This document shows positions 13,180-52,515 of a stretch of 60,629 bases of DNA, in pieces. How positions within the stretch are numbered: the first letter of the stretch is position 1; each line of letters starts with the position of its first letter. The notes under the pieces were generated by a model, which searched no databases, was not told the origin of the DNA, and worked only from the letters and a program-made list of their open reading frames with translations. The translations under genes were made by a program, and so were the position numbers. Origin of the DNA: Candidatus Fervidifonticultor octavus (GTDB taxonomy: Bacteria; Sysuimicrobiota; Sysuimicrobiia; Sysuimicrobiales; Humicultoraceae); NCBI GenBank assembly GCA_031459655.1, contig JAVKID010000003.1, forward strand, positions 1 through 60,629, given 5' to 3'.

Positions 13180-14363
13180 CCGACGACCTCGCGGAAGACC
13201 CTCAGGAAGTTCAGGCCCAGCAGTTTGCGAAGTTCCACTTCGTCAAACCCCCACCGCGCCAGGGCCACCGTGAGGTTGGGCCAGTCGCCGAAGTTCGCAT
13301 AGCCGGTCAGGCGGTAGTCGGGTGTGAGGCGGTGCTCCTCCCGGCGGAAGCCCGTCCAGTCGAATGTCTCCGGGCGAGACAGCGGCATCGCCGTTGGGTA
13401 CTCGACCAGGGAGTCGGTGCCGGGGCCGGGGCCGGCCTTATCGGTCCCGATTCCCACGTGGTCGATCCCGCAGACGTCGACCAGGTGCTCGACGTGGCGG
13501 CAGAAGTCGTCGAGGGTGACCTCCCGGGCCTCGGAGAGGAACCCGGGGATGACCACGACCCCGAAGAACCCGCCGCGGTCCGCCACCGCCTTGGCCAGTT
13601 CGTCGCTCTTCCCGCGGTCGTGGTAGCAGACGGCCTTGCTGCTCGAGTGGGAAATGACGATCGGGGCGCTGGACACCTTCAAGGCGTCCCATCCCACCTG
13701 CTCGCTGCAGTGACTGACATCGACCAGCATCCTGGCCTCGTTGAGGCGCCTGACCATCTCGCGGCCGAAGTAGGACAGCCCACCCTGATGCGCCTCGGTG
13801 CAGCCGTCTCCGACCAGGTTGCGCAGGTTGTAGGTGAGCTGCACCATGCGCACGCCGAGGTCGCGGAAGACGTCCACCCTGTCCAGGTCGTCGCCGAACG
13901 GCGTGGTGTTCTGGAAGTCGAGGATGAGCCCCCACTTCCCGTCGCGGTGGACCCGCTCGATGTCGGCCGCCCTGCGCACCAGGGTCAAGTCGCCCCCGAG
14001 GGCGTCGACGTAGGCGTACGCCTCCGCGATCCGTCGGGAGGCCTGCTCGAACGCATCGCCTGGCCGCATCCCTCCCGAGTAGGTCCCACAGGCCACGGTC
14101 ACGCCGGACTGCCGCCACAGCTCCCGATACGCGCGGCGGGCCTCCTCGGACGTCTGGAGTTCGCGGAGCGCCATCTCGGCCATCAGCGGCTCCACCTCGT
14201 CCCGCGCCTTCCCCTGGAGGGCGGCCTCGGCCAGCGCCGCCCGCATCTTCTCCGTGAACAGGAACCCGCGGGTCACCGGCGGCTGCTGCGCGTCGATGAC
14301 CAGCGCCTCTGCGTGCAGCCGACGGGCCTCCTCGGGGGTCAGGCTGGGGGTCGGGCGTCTCAT
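13176..14363 (-). CDS. membrane (renal-type) dipeptidase, peptidase family M19
   Basis: Last 395 codons of ORF 13176..15686: VIDAQQPP, VRMVQLTYNLRNLVGDGC, MLVDVSHCSEQ, PIVISHSS, IDHVGIGTDK. ATG 14361-14363 overlaps the upstream stop (ATGA). Confidence 0.9.
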   Translation of the reverse strand: MRRPTPSLTPEEARRLHAEALVIDAQQPPVTRGFLFTEKMRAALAEAALQGKARDEVEPLMAEMALRELQTSEEARRAYRELWRQSGVTVACGTYSGGMRPGDAFEQASRRIAEAYAYVDALGGDLTLVRRAADIERVHRDGKWGLILDFQNTTPFGDDLDRVDVFRDLGVRMVQLTYNLRNLVGDGCTEAHQGGLSYFGREMVRRLNEARMLVDVSHCSEQVGWDALKVSSAPIVISHSSSKAVCYHDRGKSDELAKAVADRGGFFGVVVIPGFLSEAREVTLDDFCRHVEHLVDVCGIDHVGIGTDKAGPGPGTDSLVEYPTAMPLSRPETFDWTGFRREEHRLTPDYRLTGYANFGDWPNLTVALARWGFDEVELRKLLGLNFLRVFREVVG

Positions 14364-15136
14364 AGCAGCCTCCACTCGGACAGCAGGTCGCTCCCGGCCG
14401 CCCGGCCTTCGGCTCTGAGCTTCAGCAGGTGGGCGTAGACCGACCGCGCAGCCAGAGGATGAAGGGACGGGGGCACATCGGTATAGATGCGCGACACCAG
14501 GTCGGGAATCCTGGCGGGTCCCTGCCGCAGGGCCTCCAGGATCTGCTCCTCGCGCATCCGACGGTGTGCCAGGTACTCTGCGATGACCGCCGCGGGGTCG
14601 TCGAGGGGCTCCCCGTGCCCGGGGTAGATCCGCGCGATGGCGCGCTGCCGCAGTCGCTCCAGGGAGCGGAGGTAGGCCGCCATGTCTCCGTCGGGCGGCG
14701 CGATGACCACGGTCGAGCCGCTCATGATCAGGTCCCCGGAGAACAGCGCCCGCTCCTCCCGAAGGAAGAAGCACACGTGGTCGGAGGCGTGTCCAGGCGT
14801 GTGGATCACCTCGACCGTCGCGCTCCCCCGGACCAGGACTTCCCCGTCGCGCAGCGTGAGCGGAAAGGCCAGCACCGCCGCCCCCGTCGCCCGTGCCAGA
14901 TGCGCGGCCCCCGGCGCGTGGTCCGGGTGGGAGTGGGTGAGGAGGATCCGGCCGACCCGCTCGCGGCCCAGGGCCGCCATGACGGCCTCGATGTGCCGGG
15001 GGTCGTCGGGGCCGGGGTCGATGACCGTCACCTCGCCGGTCCCGACCAGGTAGGTGTTCGTCCCCGGGCCGGTCATGGGAGAGGGGTTGGGGGCGATGAC
15101 CCGGTGGACCAGGGCAGAGAGCCGCCTCGCGAGCAT
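14360..15136 (-). CDS. MBL-fold metallo-hydrolase (LACTB2-like)
   Basis: 258 aa. GTNTYLVG, ILLTHSHPDHAPGA (HxHxDH) and HTPGHASDH. Confidence 0.9.
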   Translation of the reverse strand: MLARRLSALVHRVIAPNPSPMTGPGTNTYLVGTGEVTVIDPGPDDPRHIEAVMAALGRERVGRILLTHSHPDHAPGAAHLARATGAAVLAFPLTLRDGEVLVRGSATVEVIHTPGHASDHVCFFLREERALFSGDLIMSGSTVVIAPPDGDMAAYLRSLERLRQRAIARIYPGHGEPLDDPAAVIAEYLAHRRMREEQILEALRQGPARIPDLVSRIYTDVPPSLHPLAARSVYAHLLKLRAEGRAAGSDLLSEWRLL

Positions 15137-15208
15137 CGTGCTTCCTCCAGACAGGATCTACGGCCTGATGTCTAGAGTCTCCGGCATTTGGGAAGATACC
15201 CAGCGAAG

Positions 15209-15290
15209 CCTCCGATAAAGGCAAACCCGCCGCGAGGTGGGGACGCAAAGCCACAGGACCCCTCTGGGGTCGGCTGGGTTGCCGAAGAGG
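15209..15290 (+). promoter_or_regulatory. c-di-GMP-I (GEMM-I) riboswitch aptamer
   Basis: CCUCCGAUAAAGGCAAACCCGCC-GCGA-GGUGGGGACGCAAAGCCACAGGACCCC-UCU-GGGGUCGGCUGGGUUGCCGAAGAGG. This has the same block order as the Vc2 aptamer as I recall it: GGCAAACC, a GNRA-capped hairpin, GGGACGCAAAGCC, a second hairpin, GGGUU.CCGA. A second copy with compensatory stem changes lies at 52263-52349. Confidence 0.8.
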
Positions 15291-15328
15291 GTTTCGTTGC
15301 CAGCGGCGAAATCCTCTTACTTCTTTTT
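15285..15328 (+). terminator. intrinsic terminator (riboswitch expression platform)
   Basis: 12-bp stem AAGAGGGUUUCG / CGAAAUCCUCUU (one G-U pair), 10-nt loop, then ACUUCUUUUU. There is no upstream plus-strand gene to terminate. The 5' arm shares GAGG with the aptamer closing helix. Confidence 0.7.
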
Positions 15329-15350
15329 GGCCCGCGGAGGGGGATGCGCA

Positions 15351-15944
15351 ATGACCGTCGAGAGCATGCTCGCCGAAGTCGCCGGACTCGTTGACGTCCA
15401 GTGCCCGTGGCCGGAGGGGCATCCACGGCGTGTGGCCGGATACTGCGCCCACCTGGCTTCGGCGGCTGCTCTCGACGGGATCGCCACGGCGACCCTCGTC
15501 AGGGCCGCCCTCCTCCACGAGATCGGCAAACTGGGCATCTCCGAGCAGGTCCTGCGCAAGGCCGACCGGCTGACCCAGGAGGAGTACGCGGAGGTCAAAC
15601 GCCACCCCGTCCTGGGGGCCGAGATGTGCCGGCCGCTCCCCGACGGCGAGGCCATCGCGGCGATTGTCCGCAGTCACCACGAACACTGGAACGGCGAAGG
15701 CTATCCCGATGGTCTGGCCGGGGAGGCGATCCCGCTGGGCGCCCGGATCCTGGCCATCGCCGACGCCTACGACACCCTGACCATGGACCGGCCGTGGCGG
15801 CCGGCCTACACGCCGGAGGAGGCTTTGCAGATCCTCTGGTTTGGGGCCGACACACAGTGGGATCCCCGGCTGGTCGAATTGTTCGATCGGGTGGCGCGCT
15901 CGCGGTTCCTCACGGGCGCTCAGGTCTCCAATAGCGCCGCCTAG
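15351..15944 (+). CDS. stand-alone HD-GYP domain protein (c-di-GMP phosphodiesterase family)
   Basis: 197 aa from ATG 15351 (GGAGGGGG 7 nt upstream). EGHPRRVAGY, LLHEIGK, RSHHEHWNGEGYPDGL and ILAIADAYD blocks. The canonical HD dyad reads HE. Confidence 0.85.
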   Translation: MTVESMLAEVAGLVDVQCPWPEGHPRRVAGYCAHLASAAALDGIATATLVRAALLHEIGKLGISEQVLRKADRLTQEEYAEVKRHPVLGAEMCRPLPDGEAIAAIVRSHHEHWNGEGYPDGLAGEAIPLGARILAIADAYDTLTMDRPWRPAYTPEEALQILWFGADTQWDPRLVELFDRVARSRFLTGAQVSNSAA

Positions 15945-15947
15945 CGC

Positions 15948-16658
15948 CTACTCCAACCGCTCAAGCAGCGTCCTGGCCTCTCGGGCTGCCGCGCTGGTCG
16001 GATCCAGTTCAATGGCGCGCTCCAGTGCCTGGCGCGCCTCGGTGAGCCGGCCGGCCTTCCACGCCGCCCGGCCCATCCAGAGTTGCGCGCTGGCGGAGCC
16101 CGGCATCACCGCGGCGGCCTGCCTGAAGCGGCCGATGGCGGGTCCGTACCAGCCCGTCGAATAGAGCTGGTAGCCCTCGCGCATCAGCCTCTCGAAGTAC
16201 TTCGGGGGGGTGAGCGTGGGCTCGTCGGCGGCCGGTGACGGCGTGGCCCTCGGTGCTGGACGAGGCCGCGTCCCGGGCGCCGGTGTGGGTGGTGCGCGGT
16301 CGGAGGCCGGCCGGCTCGATGGAGTCTCTACCTTCCGGGTGGATTCAAGGCGGCGAGCGGGTCCGACCGTGGGGACGGTGGCTTTGAAGACGGGCCCACC
16401 CGCCGACGGCGCAGAGACCGCCAGCCCCGGCGTCACGCGCTTTGCGGCCCGGATCTGCGCGGCCGGAGCCTGCTGGATCAACCTGGCAAACGCCTCCAGG
16501 GGCCCGGGACCGGCGGCCAGGAAGCCCAGGACGATCAGCGCGCCCGCGAACTGGACAGAGAGGACCCACGAAGGCGTCGTCCTCGCGGAACGCCGCCTCC
16601 GAGCGTCCGGCCCGTCACCCTGCCGCGTCCCCATCTCTTCAGAGAGGGTTCTTCCCAT
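15948..16658 (-). CDS. membrane-anchored proline-rich protein with C-terminal TPR-like repeat
   Basis: One TM segment (WVLSVQFAGALIVLGFLAAG), a Pro/Ala-rich linker, and a C-terminal GWYGPAIGRFRQAAAV...AQLWMGRAAWKAGRLTEARQALERAIELDP. Start is ATG 16658 or 16634. Confidence 0.6.
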   Translation of the reverse strand: MGRTLSEEMGTRQGDGPDARRRRSARTTPSWVLSVQFAGALIVLGFLAAGPGPLEAFARLIQQAPAAQIRAAKRVTPGLAVSAPSAGGPVFKATVPTVGPARRLESTRKVETPSSRPASDRAPPTPAPGTRPRPAPRATPSPAADEPTLTPPKYFERLMREGYQLYSTGWYGPAIGRFRQAAAVMPGSASAQLWMGRAAWKAGRLTEARQALERAIELDPTSAAAREARTLLERLE

Positions 16659-16687
16659 CTTCGCCGGGCAGGAGTCCTGCTCGGGGC

Positions 16688-17917
16688 CTACCGGAGGGCC
16701 CCATCCGGCAACGCGAAGGCCGCAGCGGCCAGGTTCGCGATGTGCCGGCCGATGGCCAGCGAGGCTGTGGCTGCTGGTGAGGGCGCGTTCAGCACGTGGA
16801 TGGCGCGCGGTGCCTCCACGATGTGGAAGTCGTCCAGCAGTCGGCCATCGGGGGCGACCGCCTGGGCCCGTACCCCGGCGCCGCCGCGGGTCACATCGTC
16901 CGGGCGGAGATCGGGGACCAGGCGCTGGAGGGTCCGGACGAACGCCCTGCGGGACAGCGACCGGTAGACTTCGTAGAGCCCCGTCTGCCAGTAGCGAGCG
17001 GCCATGCGCCAGAAGCCGGGAAAGACCAGGGTCGCCGCGACCTCTGCGGGTCGGATGTGTCGCCACGAATACCCTTCCCGGGCCAGCGCCAGCACGGCGT
17101 TGGGCCCGGCTTCCACCTCGCCGGAGACGGTCCGCGTGAAGTGCACCCCCAGGAACGGAACCTCCGGATCGGGAACCGGGTAGATCAGCCCGCGCACCAG
17201 ATCCCGGCGCTCCGGCCGCAGCAGGTAGTACTCTCCCCGAAACGGGATGATGCGGATCTCGGGCGCGATCCCGACCATCTGCGCGATGCGGTCGGCGTGC
17301 AGGCCCGCGCAGTTGATCACCCAGCGCGCGCGTATTTCGCCTCCGCCCGCCTGCACGACGAAACCGTCCGCATACGGCCTGATGGCAGTCACCGGGGTGG
17401 CGGTCCGGACCGAGGCGCCGCGCCGCCTCGCCGCCTCCGCCATGGCCAGCGCGACCCGGCGAAAATCCACGCTGGCGGTCCGCGGAGAGTAGAGCGCCCG
17501 CAGTCCCGCCGCGTGCGGCTCGATCTCGCGCAGGCGCTCGGGGCCGATCCGCTCGAGGCCTTCAACGCCGTTGGCTCTGCCGCGCTCGTAGAGGTCGTCC
17601 AGGCGGGGCAGTTCGCGGGCGTCGGTGGCAACAATGACCTTCCCCAACTCCGCGACGGGAATCCCCCACTCAGCGCAACATGCGCGCAGCAACCGCGCGC
17701 CTTCCACGCACAGGCGGGCCTTGGCCGAACCGGGCCGGTAGTAGATGCCGGAGTGGATCACCCCGCTGTTGTGCCCGGTCTGGTGCATGCCGACATCGGG
17801 TTCCTTCTCGAGCACGGCCACGCGGAGGTCCGGATGCCGCCCGGTCAGGGCCAGCGCCGTCGCCAGCCCGACGATGCCGCCGCCGATGACGAGCAGGTCG
17901 ACCGAGTGGTCATCCAT
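16688..17917 (-). CDS. lhgO: FAD-dependent L-2-hydroxyglutarate oxidase/dehydrogenase
   Basis: 409 aa from MDDHSVDLLVIGGGIVGLATALAL, plus HQTGHNSGVIHSGIYYRPGS and IHVLNAPSPAATASLAIG. Confidence 0.85.
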   Translation of the reverse strand: MDDHSVDLLVIGGGIVGLATALALTGRHPDLRVAVLEKEPDVGMHQTGHNSGVIHSGIYYRPGSAKARLCVEGARLLRACCAEWGIPVAELGKVIVATDARELPRLDDLYERGRANGVEGLERIGPERLREIEPHAAGLRALYSPRTASVDFRRVALAMAEAARRRGASVRTATPVTAIRPYADGFVVQAGGGEIRARWVINCAGLHADRIAQMVGIAPEIRIIPFRGEYYLLRPERRDLVRGLIYPVPDPEVPFLGVHFTRTVSGEVEAGPNAVLALAREGYSWRHIRPAEVAATLVFPGFWRMAARYWQTGLYEVYRSLSRRAFVRTLQRLVPDLRPDDVTRGGAGVRAQAVAPDGRLLDDFHIVEAPRAIHVLNAPSPAATASLAIGRHIANLAAAAFALPDGALR

Positions 17918-51709: not shown

Positions 51710-52201
51710 TTACCGCAGCCTTTCGCTGGGAAGCACCACCAGACCGACGATCCGGTCCCTCGACACCTCCAGGACCAGTCCCGCGAATGGGCACCGGACC
51801 TCGAACCCTGCGGCCGTCATGTGGACGGCACTGGCCTCACTCACCCCACCGTTGCACAAGGCCTGCCTCGCCCTGGTCCAGTTCTCGTCGCCGGGGCCGT
51901 ATCCCGATTGTGTCTTGTGGGCCGCGTTGGTAGTGCGGATACGGATCACGCGCTCGGTGGAGAGCCACACCGTCAACCCGTGGGCAGGGATTTCGAGCAC
52001 CTCGCGAGCCGGCCCCTGAGCCGGTCGCATACGTCCGCCGACTGCGTTGAGGACCTCGTGCTCGGTCATCCCGATGGCCACGGGGCCGATTCGCTTCCCG
52101 GGTTCGACGGCGAATGAGGCGGAGGACGATGGACCCGCGGCCAGGGCGACGGCTAGGAAGATGCCGACCACCGTCTGGATGCTCTGCCGACCCGGGCTCA
52201 C
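51710..52201 (-). CDS. secreted hypothetical protein A (first gene of the riboswitch-controlled operon)
   Basis: 163 aa. GTG start 52199-52201, signal peptide IQTVVGIFLAVALAAGPSSSA, TAA stop. No family recognised. Confidence 0.65.
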   Translation of the reverse strand: MSPGRQSIQTVVGIFLAVALAAGPSSSASFAVEPGKRIGPVAIGMTEHEVLNAVGGRMRPAQGPAREVLEIPAHGLTVWLSTERVIRIRTTNAAHKTQSGYGPGDENWTRARQALCNGGVSEASAVHMTAAGFEVRCPFAGLVLEVSRDRIVGLVVLPSERLR

Positions 52202-52225
52202 TGGCGGAGTGCCCCCGGAGTCCCG

Positions 52226-52256
52226 CGAAAGAAAACACGCCTCGACCGGGAGGCGT
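52226..52256 (-). terminator. intrinsic terminator (riboswitch expression platform)
   Basis: The minus strand reads ACGCCUC-CCGGUC-GAGGCGU followed by GUUUUCUUUCG, 25 nt upstream of the GTG start. No upstream minus-strand gene ends here. Confidence 0.65.
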
Positions 52257-52262
52257 CCGTGA

Positions 52263-52349
52263 CCTCCCCGTTCGGCAACCCGGCTGACTGGTCTCCCAGC
52301 CCCGTGGCTTTGCGAGCCGCCCTCGCGGGCGGGGTGCCTTTATCGCGGG
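52263..52349 (-). promoter_or_regulatory. c-di-GMP-I (GEMM-I) riboswitch aptamer, second copy
   Basis: The minus strand reads CCCGCGAUAAAGGCACCCCGCCC-GCGA-GGGCGGCUCGCAAAGCCACGGGGCUGG-GAGA-CCAGUCAGCCGGGUUGCCGAACGGGGAGG. It shares CGAUAAAGGCA, CGCAAAGCCAC and GGGUUGCCGAA with the copy at 15209-15290, and both hairpin stems differ by compensatory changes. Confidence 0.8.
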
Positions 52350-52515
52350 CAGTTTCTCTTGACTGTTGATATGCCCAGGTCCGACTCCTCCTAGGCGTCT
52401 GATGGCGCGAAGAGTGGGCACACAGAGGGACGGGATGGGTTGGAGGCTGAAAACAGGCTATGATGAGGAAGGCATCTGTGTCCGGCGTTTCCACCCAGAT
52501 CGCTCCTGAGGAGGA

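What the first reader, a model, noticed from the sequence alone, without database searches (positions are those of the whole stretch)
15209..15328. GEMM-I riboswitch plus terminator in front of a stand-alone HD-GYP gene (possible c-di-GMP feedback loop)
Between the divergent MBL-hydrolase operon and the HD-GYP gene lies CCUCCGAUAAAGGCAAACCCGCC-GCGA-GGUGGGGACGCAAAGCCACAGGACCCC-UCU-GGGGUCGGCUGGGUUGCCGAAGAGG. A 12-bp terminator stem (AAGAGGGUUUCG/CGAAAUCCUCUU) and UUCUUUUU follow immediately, then GGAGGGGG and ATG 15351. No plus-strand gene ends upstream, so this terminator only makes sense as an expression platform. The GAGG that closes the aptamer (pairing with CCUC at 15209-15212) is also the start of the terminator 5' arm. 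Ligand-stabilised P1 should therefore prevent termination, giving an ON switch. That would let c-di-GMP induce its own putative phosphodiesterase. It also means the two riboswitch copies in this window would have opposite polarity.
Basis: partly seen in the sequence, partly recalled or inferred. Interest (0 to 1): 0.7.

Follow-up and report, generated by a model that had tools for sequence, protein, structure and literature searches.

The report
c-di-GMP ON-riboswitch before HD-GYP gene
This is a genuine, evolutionarily conserved c-di-GMP-sensing RNA switch whose closing helix competes with a transcription terminator, so the messenger most likely turns on a gene for a probable c-di-GMP-degrading enzyme; it is a well-built but ordinary example of a known mechanism.

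Summary
Window 15209-15290 is a class I c-di-GMP (GEMM-I) aptamer. Rfam's best match is the variant model RF03167, at 68.6 bits and E 4e-14. However, the nucleotide that defines that variant is the canonical A here (A15247), so this is an ordinary c-di-GMP-I aptamer.

A 15-bp hairpin (15285-15318) and a U-rich tract (15319-15328) follow. The hairpin's first six bases include the 3' strand of P1 (GAGG, 15287-15290). P1 and the terminator therefore exclude each other, which is the classical ON design.

The whole unit lies in front of every stand-alone HD-GYP orthologue that has enough upstream DNA, in 11 distinct Sysuimicrobiota/CSP1-3 sequences. The stem arms are invariant and the loop is hypervariable. 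The P1 outer helix covaries across 117 related aptamers.

The second aptamer (52263-52353, minus strand) has an antiterminator/terminator platform of the OFF type.

One caveat affects the feedback idea. All 36 closest homologues of the controlled protein read H-E instead of the signature H-D, so phosphodiesterase activity is not assured. No usable RNA data exist, and ligand response is untested.

Verdict: a new member of a known kind, of modest interest.

The parts
15168..15175 (+). Conserved upstream box 1 (ATGTCTAG), possibly a -35-like promoter element or an operator
   Evidence: Nearly invariant (A/C)(T/G)GTCTA in 10 of 11 orthologous leaders; flanking sequence is not conserved. The promoter role is an inference. 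The sigma-70 consensus scan found nothing here.
15188..15199 (+). Conserved upstream box 2 (TTGGGAAGATAC; orthologues read TGGGCACAAT). The -10-like hexamer is GAAGAT at 15192-15197, which would put the transcription start about 15203-15206, just before P1
   Evidence: TGGG.A..AT is conserved in all 11 leaders and lies 16-18 nt after box 1. Inference only; no RNA 5'-end data.
15209..15214 (+). P1 5' strand (CCUCCG)
   Evidence: It pairs with 15283-15284 and 15287-15290. The four outer P1 pairs covary (CG/UA/GC/AU) across 117 distinct aptamers, with 88.9% of cells paired.
15220..15220 (+). G equivalent to Vc2 G20 (Hoogsteen contact to G-alpha; it discriminates c-di-GMP from cGAMP)
   Evidence: CM alignment. 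Role of G20: PMC5888326, PMC10333796, PMC4744006.
15221..15246 (+). P2 helix with GNRA tetraloop GCGA (15232-15235); includes C15244, the equivalent of the inter-helix C44
   Evidence: CM alignment. Compensatory C-G to U-A change in L178. P2 cells are 98.9% paired.
15247..15247 (+). A equivalent to Vc2 A47 (it intercalates between the two guanines). The RF03167 'GGC' consensus has G at this position
   Evidence: the RF03167 consensus reads GACGCGAAgCc, RF01051 reads GACGCAAAgCc and the window reads GACGCAAAGCC. A is also present in all 10 other orthologues.
15249..15280 (+). P3 helix: 13 pairs, a GG bulge at 15272-15273 (G15273 = inter-helix G83 equivalent) and no 11-nt tetraloop receptor
   Evidence: CM alignment. 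G-C / A-U / G-U alternation at 15257:15271 among orthologues. 94.1% of cells paired, 9 pairs with changes on both sides.
15282..15282 (+). C equivalent to Vc2 C92 (Watson-Crick pair with G-beta)
   Evidence: CM alignment; PMC5888326.
15283..15290 (+). P1 3' strand: CG (inner pairs), AA bulge, GAGG (outer pairs)
15285..15318 (+). Intrinsic-terminator hairpin: 15 bp, loop CCAG. Its 5' arm (15285-15299) contains the AA bulge and the GAGG of P1
   Evidence: Both arms are invariant and the loop is hypervariable in sequence and length in 11 orthologues. The A-to-G changes in L004 keep U.G pairs.
15319..15328 (+). U-rich tract (ACUUCUUUUU)
   Evidence: U-rich in most orthologues: excellent in L002 and L185, poor in L176, L180 and L188.
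15336..15343 (+). Shine-Dalgarno sequence GGAGGGGG
   Evidence: It lies 7 nt before the ATG. The block CCGCAGAGGGGGATGCGCAATG is conserved in orthologues.
15351..15944 (+). Stand-alone HD-GYP-family gene (197 aa) with LLHEIGK (H56-E57), HHEHWNGEGYP and RPWR
   Evidence: Pfam HD_5 9.4e-43. PDB relatives 5z7c, 4r8z and 4mcw all have HD at the aligned position. Clade-wide HE.
52263..52353 (-). Second c-di-GMP-I aptamer in the window (comparison copy)
   Evidence: RF01051 58.3 bits; own model R1 83.9 bits.
52237..52256 (-). Terminator of the second riboswitch (ACGCCUC/GAGGCGU followed by GUUUUCUUU). Its 5' arm can instead pair with the P1 3' strand region GGGGAGG (antiterminator), which gives an OFF design

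Best explanation
A canonical class I c-di-GMP riboswitch sits at the 5' end of a monocistronic mRNA for a stand-alone HD-GYP-family protein and works as a transcriptional ON switch.

Without ligand, the nascent RNA folds the 15-bp hairpin 15285-15318 in front of the U-rich tract, and RNA polymerase terminates before the start codon.

With c-di-GMP bound in the P1/P2/P3 junction (contacts G15220, A15247, C15282), P1 is locked: CCUCCG 15209-15214 pairs with CG..GAGG 15283-15290. This withholds the first six bases of the terminator 5' arm. Only a weak 9-bp hairpin remains, and it lies 6 nt away from the U tract, so transcription reads through into the gene.

If the protein is an active c-di-GMP phosphodiesterase, the circuit is a negative feedback that caps c-di-GMP.

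Shown here: aptamer identity, the overlap, conservation, covariation and energetics. Inferred: ligand binding, read-through, promoter position and enzyme activity.
For: Aptamer identity. The CM hit scores 68.6 bits, E 3.9e-14. The ligand-contact nucleotides match Vc2 (PMC5888326, PMC4744006).

Conservation. The aptamer lies upstream of every stand-alone orthologue with enough 5' DNA: L001, L002, L170/171, L173/174, L176/177, L178, L179, L180, L185, L188, plus a truncated copy in L187. It also precedes the REC-fused L004 gene. Synteny is conserved as M19 peptidase / MBL | HD-GYP | TPR / DAO.

Covariation. On 117 distinct aptamers, 95.1% of cells are paired, against 47% or less when partners are slid. 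All four outer P1 pairs show changes on both sides.

Terminator. The arms are invariant and the loop is free to vary in 11 leaders.

Energetics. The terminator conformer is -52.1 kcal/mol and the P1-closed conformer is -43.1 kcal/mol at 37 C. The gap is 6.7 kcal/mol at 60 C. My own recollection of picomolar-to-nanomolar c-di-GMP affinities suggests binding could bridge a gap of this size.

Specificity of the hairpins. The two strongest hairpin-plus-U sites in 60 kb are exactly the two that follow the aptamers.

Independent and published examples. An unrelated aptamer with the same P1-overlapping terminator exists at L116:2918-3006. The same mechanism was shown by reporters for Bc3-5 of Bacillus thuringiensis (PMC4759541).

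Gene association. HD-GYP genes were already listed among GEMM-associated genes in 2007 (PMC1950547). The protein has the RxxR motif linked to c-di-GMP rather than cGAMP selectivity (bioRxiv 10.1101/600031).
Against: There is no experimental or transcriptomic evidence. Only DNA metagenomes hold the exact locus. The metatranscriptome contigs cover the F. tertius orthologue (L002) evenly across promoter, leader and ORF at depth 5-7, which is uninformative and may reflect DNA.

The lower terminator stem and P1 do not vary within the orthologous group, so they give no covariation there.

The U tract is weak in L176, L180 and L188, and P1 looks disrupted in L188.

Canonical intrinsic terminators are otherwise not enriched in this genome, so their efficiency in this phylum is unknown.

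The canonical 11-nt tetraloop receptor of many GEMM-I RNAs is absent.

The HD dyad of the enzyme is H-E, so the degradative half of the feedback loop is unproven.
Confidence: 0.7

Rival explanations
1. It is a member of the c-di-GMP-I-GGC variant class, as automatic Rfam annotation would label it, and it senses a ligand other than, or bound differently from, c-di-GMP.
For: RF03167 is the best-scoring Rfam model for the window (68.6 bits, gathering score 59) and for all full-length orthologues (61-72 bits).
Against: The only conserved core position where the RF03167 and RF01051 consensus sequences differ is GACGC-G-AA versus GACGC-A-AA. That position is A in the window and in all 10 other orthologues. 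No GACGCGAAGCC version occurs in any of the 188 fetched loci. RF01051 also passes its threshold: same-clan hits were suppressed, and the 5'-truncated orthologue L187 scores 50.9 bits on RF01051. The higher RF03167 score is explained by that model including P1 pairs and a short P3. I recalled the meaning of 'GGC' (positions 20, 47, 92) from memory, because the defining paper (PMC5358364) is not held.
Confidence: 0.05
2. The aptamer binds c-di-GMP, but control is not ligand-induced antitermination. The hairpin may be a constitutive attenuator or stability element, control may be mainly translational, or the polarity may be OFF.
For: U tracts are weak in some orthologues (L176, L180, L188). 78 of 118 related high-GC aptamers have no recognisable terminator at all, which suggests translational control is common in such genomes. 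The leader has two CCUC elements and two GAGG elements, one of which is the SD, so other pairings can be drawn. Thermodynamic folding of the full leader predicts that the SD is paired in the free state and more open in the bound state: mean unpaired probability 0.13 versus 0.48 at 37 C.
Against: The SD prediction points to the same ON polarity, not the opposite one. The 15-bp stem with invariant arms placed directly on the P1 3' strand, followed by U-rich sequence in most orthologues, is the standard ON terminator design (PMC4759541). No alternative antiterminator other than P1 itself is apparent.
Confidence: 0.12
3. The switch is an ON c-di-GMP riboswitch, but the product is not a c-di-GMP phosphodiesterase. 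The H-E (and in part C-H-E) clade would be an effector or binding protein, or would act on another substrate, so there is no degradative feedback.
For: All 36 closest homologues have LLHE(I/V)GK. More distant REC-fused relatives and all three solved structures have HD. 12 of the 36 also replace the first His of HHE with Cys.
Against: Asp to Glu keeps a carboxylate metal ligand. All other metal ligands mapped from 4mcw (H24, H85, H109/H110, D138), the GYP motif and RxxR are kept. Strict conservation of E argues for a working site rather than decay. L004, which has an ordinary HD and a REC domain, is preceded by the same riboswitch.
Confidence: 0.13

Closest known systems
Vc2 / Vc1 c-di-GMP-I (GEMM-I) riboswitches of Vibrio cholerae (Rfam RF01051)
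   Same: Same three-helix junction and the same ligand contacts (G20, A47, C92). The inter-helix C44-G83 pair is kept as C15244-G15273. P2 carries a GNRA tetraloop. Vc1 is also an ON element (PMC4744006).
   Different: P3 is short and lacks the 11-nt tetraloop receptor. The unpaired A next to G83 is G here (GG bulge). The expression platform is an explicit P1-overlapping intrinsic terminator. The host is a high-GC candidate phylum (Sysuimicrobiota/CSP1-3).
Bc3-Bc5 (and other Bacillus thuringiensis) c-di-GMP-I ON riboswitches
   Same: The mechanism is the same. The terminator uses nucleotides of the P1 3' strand and the binding site, so bound c-di-GMP prevents terminator formation and turns transcription on. 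This was validated with reporters (PMC4759541).
   Different: Here there is a single aptamer rather than a tandem. The regulated gene is an HD-GYP protein rather than an adhesin operon. There are no experimental data here.
Rfam RF03167 c-di-GMP-I-GGC variant
   Same: It is the best-scoring covariance model. It shares the short P3 and the annotated P1 with an AA bulge.
   Different: The defining G at the A47 position is A in this RNA and in all its orthologues. It therefore fails the defining feature.
pbuE (ydhL) adenine riboswitch, the archetypal terminator-disruption ON switch
   Same: The logic is the same: the P1 3' strand doubles as the terminator 5' arm. The basis is established knowledge (Mandal and Breaker 2004, listed as ref. 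26 of PMC9295807).
   Different: It has an unrelated aptamer and ligand.
HD-GYP phosphodiesterases with solved structures: PmGH (4mcw), PA4781 (4r8z), V-cGAP3 (5z7c)
   Same: Same HD_5 domain, HHExxDGxGYP motif, RxxK/R motif and most metal ligands.
   Different: It is a stand-alone 197-aa protein with no sensor domain. The HD dyad is H-E in the whole orthologous clade, and HHE is CHE in a third of it.

Membership tests
c-di-GMP-I riboswitch (GEMM-I; Rfam clan CL00126, RF01051) | Covariance-model score above the curated threshold | tested here: met
   The RF03167 hit (same clan) scores 68.6 bits against a gathering score of 59. A second same-clan hit above its own threshold was suppressed. The truncated orthologue L187 scores 50.9 bits on RF01051, whose gathering score is 35.
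c-di-GMP-I riboswitch (GEMM-I; Rfam clan CL00126, RF01051) | P1/P2/P3 three-way junction supported by covariation | tested here: met
   27 pairs; 95.1% of cells paired against 47% or less when slid; 20 pairs with changes on both sides; 0 of 500 shuffles reach the observed values. Caveat: the alignment was fitted to the model.
c-di-GMP-I riboswitch (GEMM-I; Rfam clan CL00126, RF01051) | Ligand-contacting nucleotides G20, A47, C92 and the inter-helix C44-G83 pair | tested here: met
   G15220, A15247, C15282, C15244 and G15273, read from the CM alignment. Roles are taken from PMC5888326 and PMC4744006.
c-di-GMP-I riboswitch (GEMM-I; Rfam clan CL00126, RF01051) | GNRA tetraloop on P2 docking into a receptor in P3 | tested here: inconclusive
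   A GNRA loop is present (GCGA; GCAA or GUGA in orthologues). The CUAAG...UAUG receptor of the RF01051 consensus is absent (gap).
c-di-GMP-I riboswitch (GEMM-I; Rfam clan CL00126, RF01051) | Located in a 5' leader, on the same strand as a gene of c-di-GMP signalling or its outputs | tested here: met
   It lies 60 nt upstream of an HD-GYP gene, and the upstream gene is divergent. The HD-GYP association is listed in PMC1950547.
c-di-GMP-I riboswitch (GEMM-I; Rfam clan CL00126, RF01051) | Selective binding of c-di-GMP | not testable with these tools
   Needs in-line probing, ITC or equilibrium dialysis.
c-di-GMP-I-GGC variant (RF03167) | Covariance-model score above the gathering score | tested here: met
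   68.6 bits against 59.
c-di-GMP-I-GGC variant (RF03167) | G instead of A at the position equivalent to Vc2 A47 | tested here: not met
   The window and all orthologues read GACGC-A-AAGCC, whereas the RF03167 consensus reads GACGC-G-AA.
Transcriptional ON riboswitch (terminator-disruption type) | Intrinsic terminator (GC-rich hairpin plus U tract) between the aptamer and the start codon | tested here: met
   A 15-bp stem at 15285-15318 followed by ACUUCUUUUU. The full terminator hairpin is predicted in the 37 C MFE fold and alone scores about -19.7 kcal/mol.
Transcriptional ON riboswitch (terminator-disruption type) | The P1 3' strand is part of the terminator 5' arm, so the two are mutually exclusive | tested here: met
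   15285-15290 is shared. Conformer energies are -52.1 kcal/mol (terminator) and -43.1 kcal/mol (P1 closed). The overlap is conserved in the orthologues.
Transcriptional ON riboswitch (terminator-disruption type) | Ligand-dependent increase in read-through | not testable with these tools
   No usable RNA data. Needs in vitro transcription or a reporter.
HD-GYP c-di-GMP phosphodiesterase | HD_5 domain with the HHExxDGxGYP and Rxx(K/R) motifs | tested here: met
   Pfam HD_5 9.4e-43. HHEHWNGEGYP (N in place of D) and RPWR are present. The Rxx(K/R) criterion comes from bioRxiv 10.1101/600031.
HD-GYP c-di-GMP phosphodiesterase | His-Asp catalytic dyad | tested here: not met
   The motif is LLHEIGK, with E57 aligned to the D of the HD dyad in 5z7c, 4r8z and 4mcw. 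HE occurs in all 36 closest homologues.
HD-GYP c-di-GMP phosphodiesterase | Hydrolysis of c-di-GMP | not testable with these tools
   Needs an enzyme assay.

The most novel reading that the evidence does not exclude
The riboswitch belongs to a conserved Sysuimicrobiota module. In this reading, c-di-GMP induces a distinct 'HE-GYP' protein clade: Glu replaces the Asp of the HD dyad, and Cys often replaces the first His of HHE. The metal centre, the substrate (for example pGpG or another dinucleotide) or the role (a binding protein or sponge rather than a hydrolase) would differ from classical HD-GYP enzymes. The loop would then not be simple degradative feedback.
Probability: 0.2. Interest if true: 0.5.

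Novelty: new member of a known kind. Interest (0 to 1): 0.3.

Why it matters
This is a clean, conserved example of a c-di-GMP ON switch wired to a probable c-di-GMP-degrading enzyme. The host is an uncultivated hot-spring phylum (CSP1-3/Sysuimicrobiota) with no riboswitch or c-di-GMP work on record.

It yields three practical points:
1. Rfam clan competition labels these canonical aptamers as the 'GGC variant'. Anyone mining variant classes should check position 47.
2. The same genome pairs an ON copy with an OFF copy, which makes a compact natural test bed for polarity.
3. The regulated protein clade carries an unreported H-E dyad that deserves an enzyme assay.

None of this changes current understanding of riboswitch mechanisms.

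Tried and rejected
RNA evidence. Only DNA hot-spring metagenomes hold the exact locus. The RNA runs found (X6, X7) are Logan contigs. On the window they mostly gave cross-matches from other aptamers. On the F. tertius orthologue they gave flat depth of 5-7 over promoter, leader and ORF, which cannot show termination and may be DNA.

Literature. The paper that defines the GGC variant (PMC5358364 / 10.1073/pnas.1619581114) and Sudarsan 2008 (PMC5304454) are not held. The meaning of 'GGC' therefore rests on my own knowledge plus the two Rfam consensus lines. A search for a validated riboswitch-to-phosphodiesterase negative feedback found nothing specific.

GGC variants. I looked for true GGC variants among the 188 fetched loci and in the window and found none.

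Diguanylate cyclase. I looked for a GGDEF gene in the window and found none credible.

Sigma-70 promoter. The consensus scan found no promoter in 14800-16800.

Longer ORF. I rejected the longer GTG ORF 15237-15944 as the gene start. It would run through the aptamer and through a terminator loop that varies in length by non-multiples of three among orthologues.

Other terminator readings. I rejected the idea that the hairpin terminates a neighbouring gene, because no plus-strand gene ends upstream. On the minus strand the hairpin is not followed by a U tract.

Reversed translational polarity. I rejected the idea that the freed CCUCUU arm sequesters the SD when ligand is bound. Constrained folding predicts the SD is more open, not less, in the bound state.

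Full report

- a full-length riboswitch hit at 15211-15287 (+), 68.6 bits, E 3.9e-14;
- a second c-di-GMP-I aptamer at 52271-52348 (-), 58.3 bits;
- a tRNA.

The hairpin after the first aptamer has 15 pairs, not 12. It runs from 15285-15299 to 15304-15318 with loop CCAG, and ACTTCTTTTT follows. It is the strongest terminator-like site in the 60 kb. The next best is the hairpin after the second aptamer. Overall, such sites occur at shuffle background, about 20 found against about 15 expected.

GGAGGGGG lies at 15336-15343 and ATG at 15351. The ORF 15351-15944 (197 aa) matches Pfam HD_5 at 9e-43 and has no other domain. The neighbours are an MBL-fold hydrolase on the minus strand (14360-15136) and a convergent TPR gene (15948-17066). 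The HD-GYP gene is therefore monocistronic, and nothing on the plus strand ends upstream.

**2. Which riboswitch class?**

The best Rfam model is RF03167 (c-di-GMP-I-GGC), not RF01051. The two consensus lines printed differ in the conserved core at one place. RF01051 reads GACGC-A-AAgCc and RF03167 reads GACGC-G-AAgCc. The window reads GACGCAAAGCC, so it has the canonical A.

In Vc2 numbering this position is A47. Together with G20 and C92 it contacts the ligand (PMC5888326, PMC4744006). G20 is the determinant of c-di-GMP over cGAMP (PMC10333796). The window has G15220, A15247 and C15282, plus the inter-helix pair C15244-G15273.

That 'GGC' names positions 20/47/92 is my own recollection, because the defining paper is not held.

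RF01051 also passes its threshold. Same-clan hits were suppressed, and the 5'-truncated orthologue L187 scores 50.9 bits on RF01051. RF03167 wins because it models P1 with the AA bulge and a short P3. I therefore file the RNA as a canonical c-di-GMP-I aptamer that an automatic pipeline would mislabel.

One structural departure is that the 11-nt tetraloop receptor is missing from P3, although P2 keeps a GNRA loop.

**3. Where does it come from, and is it conserved?**

The protein is 97% identical to one in a 'Candidatus Fervidifonticultor sextus' MAG. This belongs to phylum Sysuimicrobiota (formerly CSP1-3) and comes from hot springs (PMC11604079).

Protein search found a clade of about 36 stand-alone proteins of 190-200 aa at 60-100% identity. 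I fetched contigs for ten of them. Every stand-alone orthologue with enough upstream DNA carries the aptamer directly in front of the gene, at 61-71 bits. Synteny is conserved: M19 peptidase and MBL divergent on one side, TPR and DAO oxidoreductase convergent on the other. A REC-fused relative (L004) has it too. Two other REC-fused relatives (L182, L183/184) do not.

This gives 11 distinct leaders. Within them:
- P2 shows a compensatory C-G to U-A change (L178).
- P3 alternates G-C / A-U / G-U at 15257:15271.

**4. The wider family and P1**

A pattern scan of metagenome contigs returned 120 loci with related high-GC aptamers. I built a covariance model from the orthologues plus the second window copy. 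It aligned 118 aptamers.

On that alignment 95.1% of cells are standard pairs, against 47% or less when the 3' partners are slid. Twenty of 27 pairs change on both sides. The four outer P1 pairs beyond the AA bulge each show CG, UA, GC and AU. The alignment is fitted to the model, which favours the structure, but the slid controls are far lower. The second copy in the window has CCCG/CGGG at the same place.

**5. The expression platform**

The terminator's first six bases (15285-15290) are the AA bulge and the GAGG of P1.

Evaluated energies at 37 C are:
- terminator conformer, -52.1 kcal/mol;
- P1 closed plus the residual 9-bp hairpin, -43.1 kcal/mol.

The gap is 6.7 kcal/mol at 60 C and 5.7 kcal/mol at 70 C. 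Without ligand the terminator wins. From memory, c-di-GMP-I aptamers bind with picomolar-to-nanomolar affinity, and such binding is of the right order to reverse a gap of this size. P1 is also made about 25 nt before the terminator 3' arm, so kinetic locking is plausible. With P1 closed, the remaining hairpin is weak and lies 6 nt from the U tract.

Across the 11 leaders the two arms (AAGAGGGUUUCG / CGAAAUCCUCUU) are invariant. The loop differs completely in sequence and length. The A-to-G changes in L004 keep U.G pairs, and the tail is U-rich in most. This is the signature of a selected hairpin. The lower stem offers no double changes, so it gives no covariation.

A simple survey of the 118 aptamers gave these counts:
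- 78 had no terminator;
- 15 had a terminator well downstream;
- 3 had one nearby;
- 8 had one overlapping P1.

The eight were seven members of the orthologous group and one independent case, L116:2918-3006.

The same design, with P1 and binding-site nucleotides shared with the terminator, was shown by reporters to switch transcription on in B. thuringiensis Bc3-5 (PMC4759541). Folding the whole leader also predicts a more accessible SD in the bound state (0.48 versus 0.13 unpaired). That is the same polarity, but long-range predictions are weak evidence.

**6. The promoter**

Upstream of P1 two blocks are conserved among the leaders: ATGTCTAG (15168-15175) and TGGG.A..AT (15188-15199, with GAAGAT at 15192-15197). 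They lie 16-18 nt apart amid unconserved sequence. If these are -35-like and -10-like elements, transcription would start a few bases before P1, as expected for a riboswitch leader. This is inference only. The sigma-70 consensus scan found nothing, and no RNA 5' ends are available.

**7. The second riboswitch**

On the minus strand, the P1 3' strand region of the second aptamer (CGGGGAGG) can pair with GCCUCCCG. That sequence is the 5' arm and loop of a 7-bp terminator (52256-52237) followed by GUUUUCUUU. The antiterminator alone is -14.8 kcal/mol and is the predicted ground state. Ligand-stabilised P1 would release the terminator, which is an OFF design. Its downstream gene (51710-52201) encodes a 163-aa protein with a signal-peptide-like N-terminus and no Pfam match.

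**8. The regulated protein**

Alignment to the solved HD-GYP structures 5z7c, 4r8z and 4mcw shows that most metal ligands are present, along with HHEHWNGEGYP and RPWR. RPWR is an Rxx(K/R) motif, which is linked to c-di-GMP rather than cGAMP selectivity (bioRxiv 10.1101/600031).

The HD dyad, however, reads H56-E57. This is not a sequencing quirk. All 36 closest homologues have LLHE(I/V)GK, and 12 of them also have CHE instead of HHE. More distant, mostly REC-fused relatives have HD. L004, which is riboswitch-controlled and REC-fused, has HD. A Glu can still bind metal and the site is conserved, so I still favour an active hydrolase. The 'own phosphodiesterase' half of the feedback loop is nevertheless an inference that needs an assay.

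**9. What could not be shown**

No RNA data bear on the switch. Only DNA metagenomes hold the locus. The one related metatranscriptome is available as assembled contigs with flat depth over the F. tertius orthologue. Ligand binding, termination and enzyme activity are untested.

**10. Verdict**

It is a new member of known kinds: a c-di-GMP-I aptamer, a terminator-disruption ON platform, and a gene association (GEMM with HD-GYP) already listed in 2007 (PMC1950547; see also PMC7266159). I score interest at 0.3.

The most novel reading that remains open concerns the H-E clade of the regulated protein, not the RNA.

Noticed in passing
window 15516-15521 (codons H56-E57 of the ORF 15351-15944); proteins P0001-P0036: The HD dyad of the HD-GYP domain is H-E (LLHEIGK) in this protein and in all 36 closest stand-alone homologues. 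Twelve of them also have CHE instead of HHE. More distant REC-fused relatives and the solved structures 5z7c, 4r8z and 4mcw have HD.
   Followed up: partly
window 52222-52356 (-) and ORF 51710-52201 (-): The second c-di-GMP-I riboswitch has an antiterminator/terminator platform of the OFF type. It sits in front of a 163-aa protein that has a signal-peptide-like N-terminus and no Pfam match.
   Followed up: partly
window 15211-15287; L001, L002, L004, L170-L188: Rfam clan competition assigns these canonical (A47) aptamers to the GGC-variant model RF03167, above its gathering score. Automatic annotation would therefore mislabel a whole lineage of ordinary c-di-GMP-I riboswitches.
   Followed up: yes
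window 15168-15175 and 15188-15199: Two sequence blocks (ATGTCTAG and TGGG.A..AT) are conserved upstream of the aptamer in 11 orthologous leaders. They may be a lineage-specific promoter that does not match the TTGACA/TATAAT scan.
   Followed up: partly
whole window: Terminator-like hairpin-plus-U sites are at shuffle background across the 60 kb. The only two convincing ones are those that follow the two riboswitch aptamers.
   Followed up: yes
L064, L073, L083, L089 (metagenome loci): In several unrelated contigs an HD-GYP gene lies immediately upstream of a c-di-GMP-I aptamer on the same strand, the reverse of the order seen here. Several contigs carry two to four aptamers, for example L095, L089 and L154.
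   Followed up: no
L116:2918-3006 (-): An independent aptamer outside the orthologous group has a terminator overlapping the P1 3' strand (CACUUCCAAUGA...UCAUUGGAGGUG followed by UGCUUUUU). This is the same ON architecture with an unrelated stem sequence.
   Followed up: no
L188:448-576: This is the most divergent orthologous leader. The P1 5' strand reads CAAC instead of CCUC, which does not pair with GAGG. The hairpin is kept with a bulge, and there is no U tract. It may be a decayed or differently wired copy.
   Followed up: partly
window 15259-15266 and 15336-15343: In unconstrained folds of the full leader, the SD GGAGGGGG pairs with the apical P3 sequence CCCCUCU. This hints at a translational layer with the same ON polarity, but it is a low-confidence long-range prediction.
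   Followed up: partly
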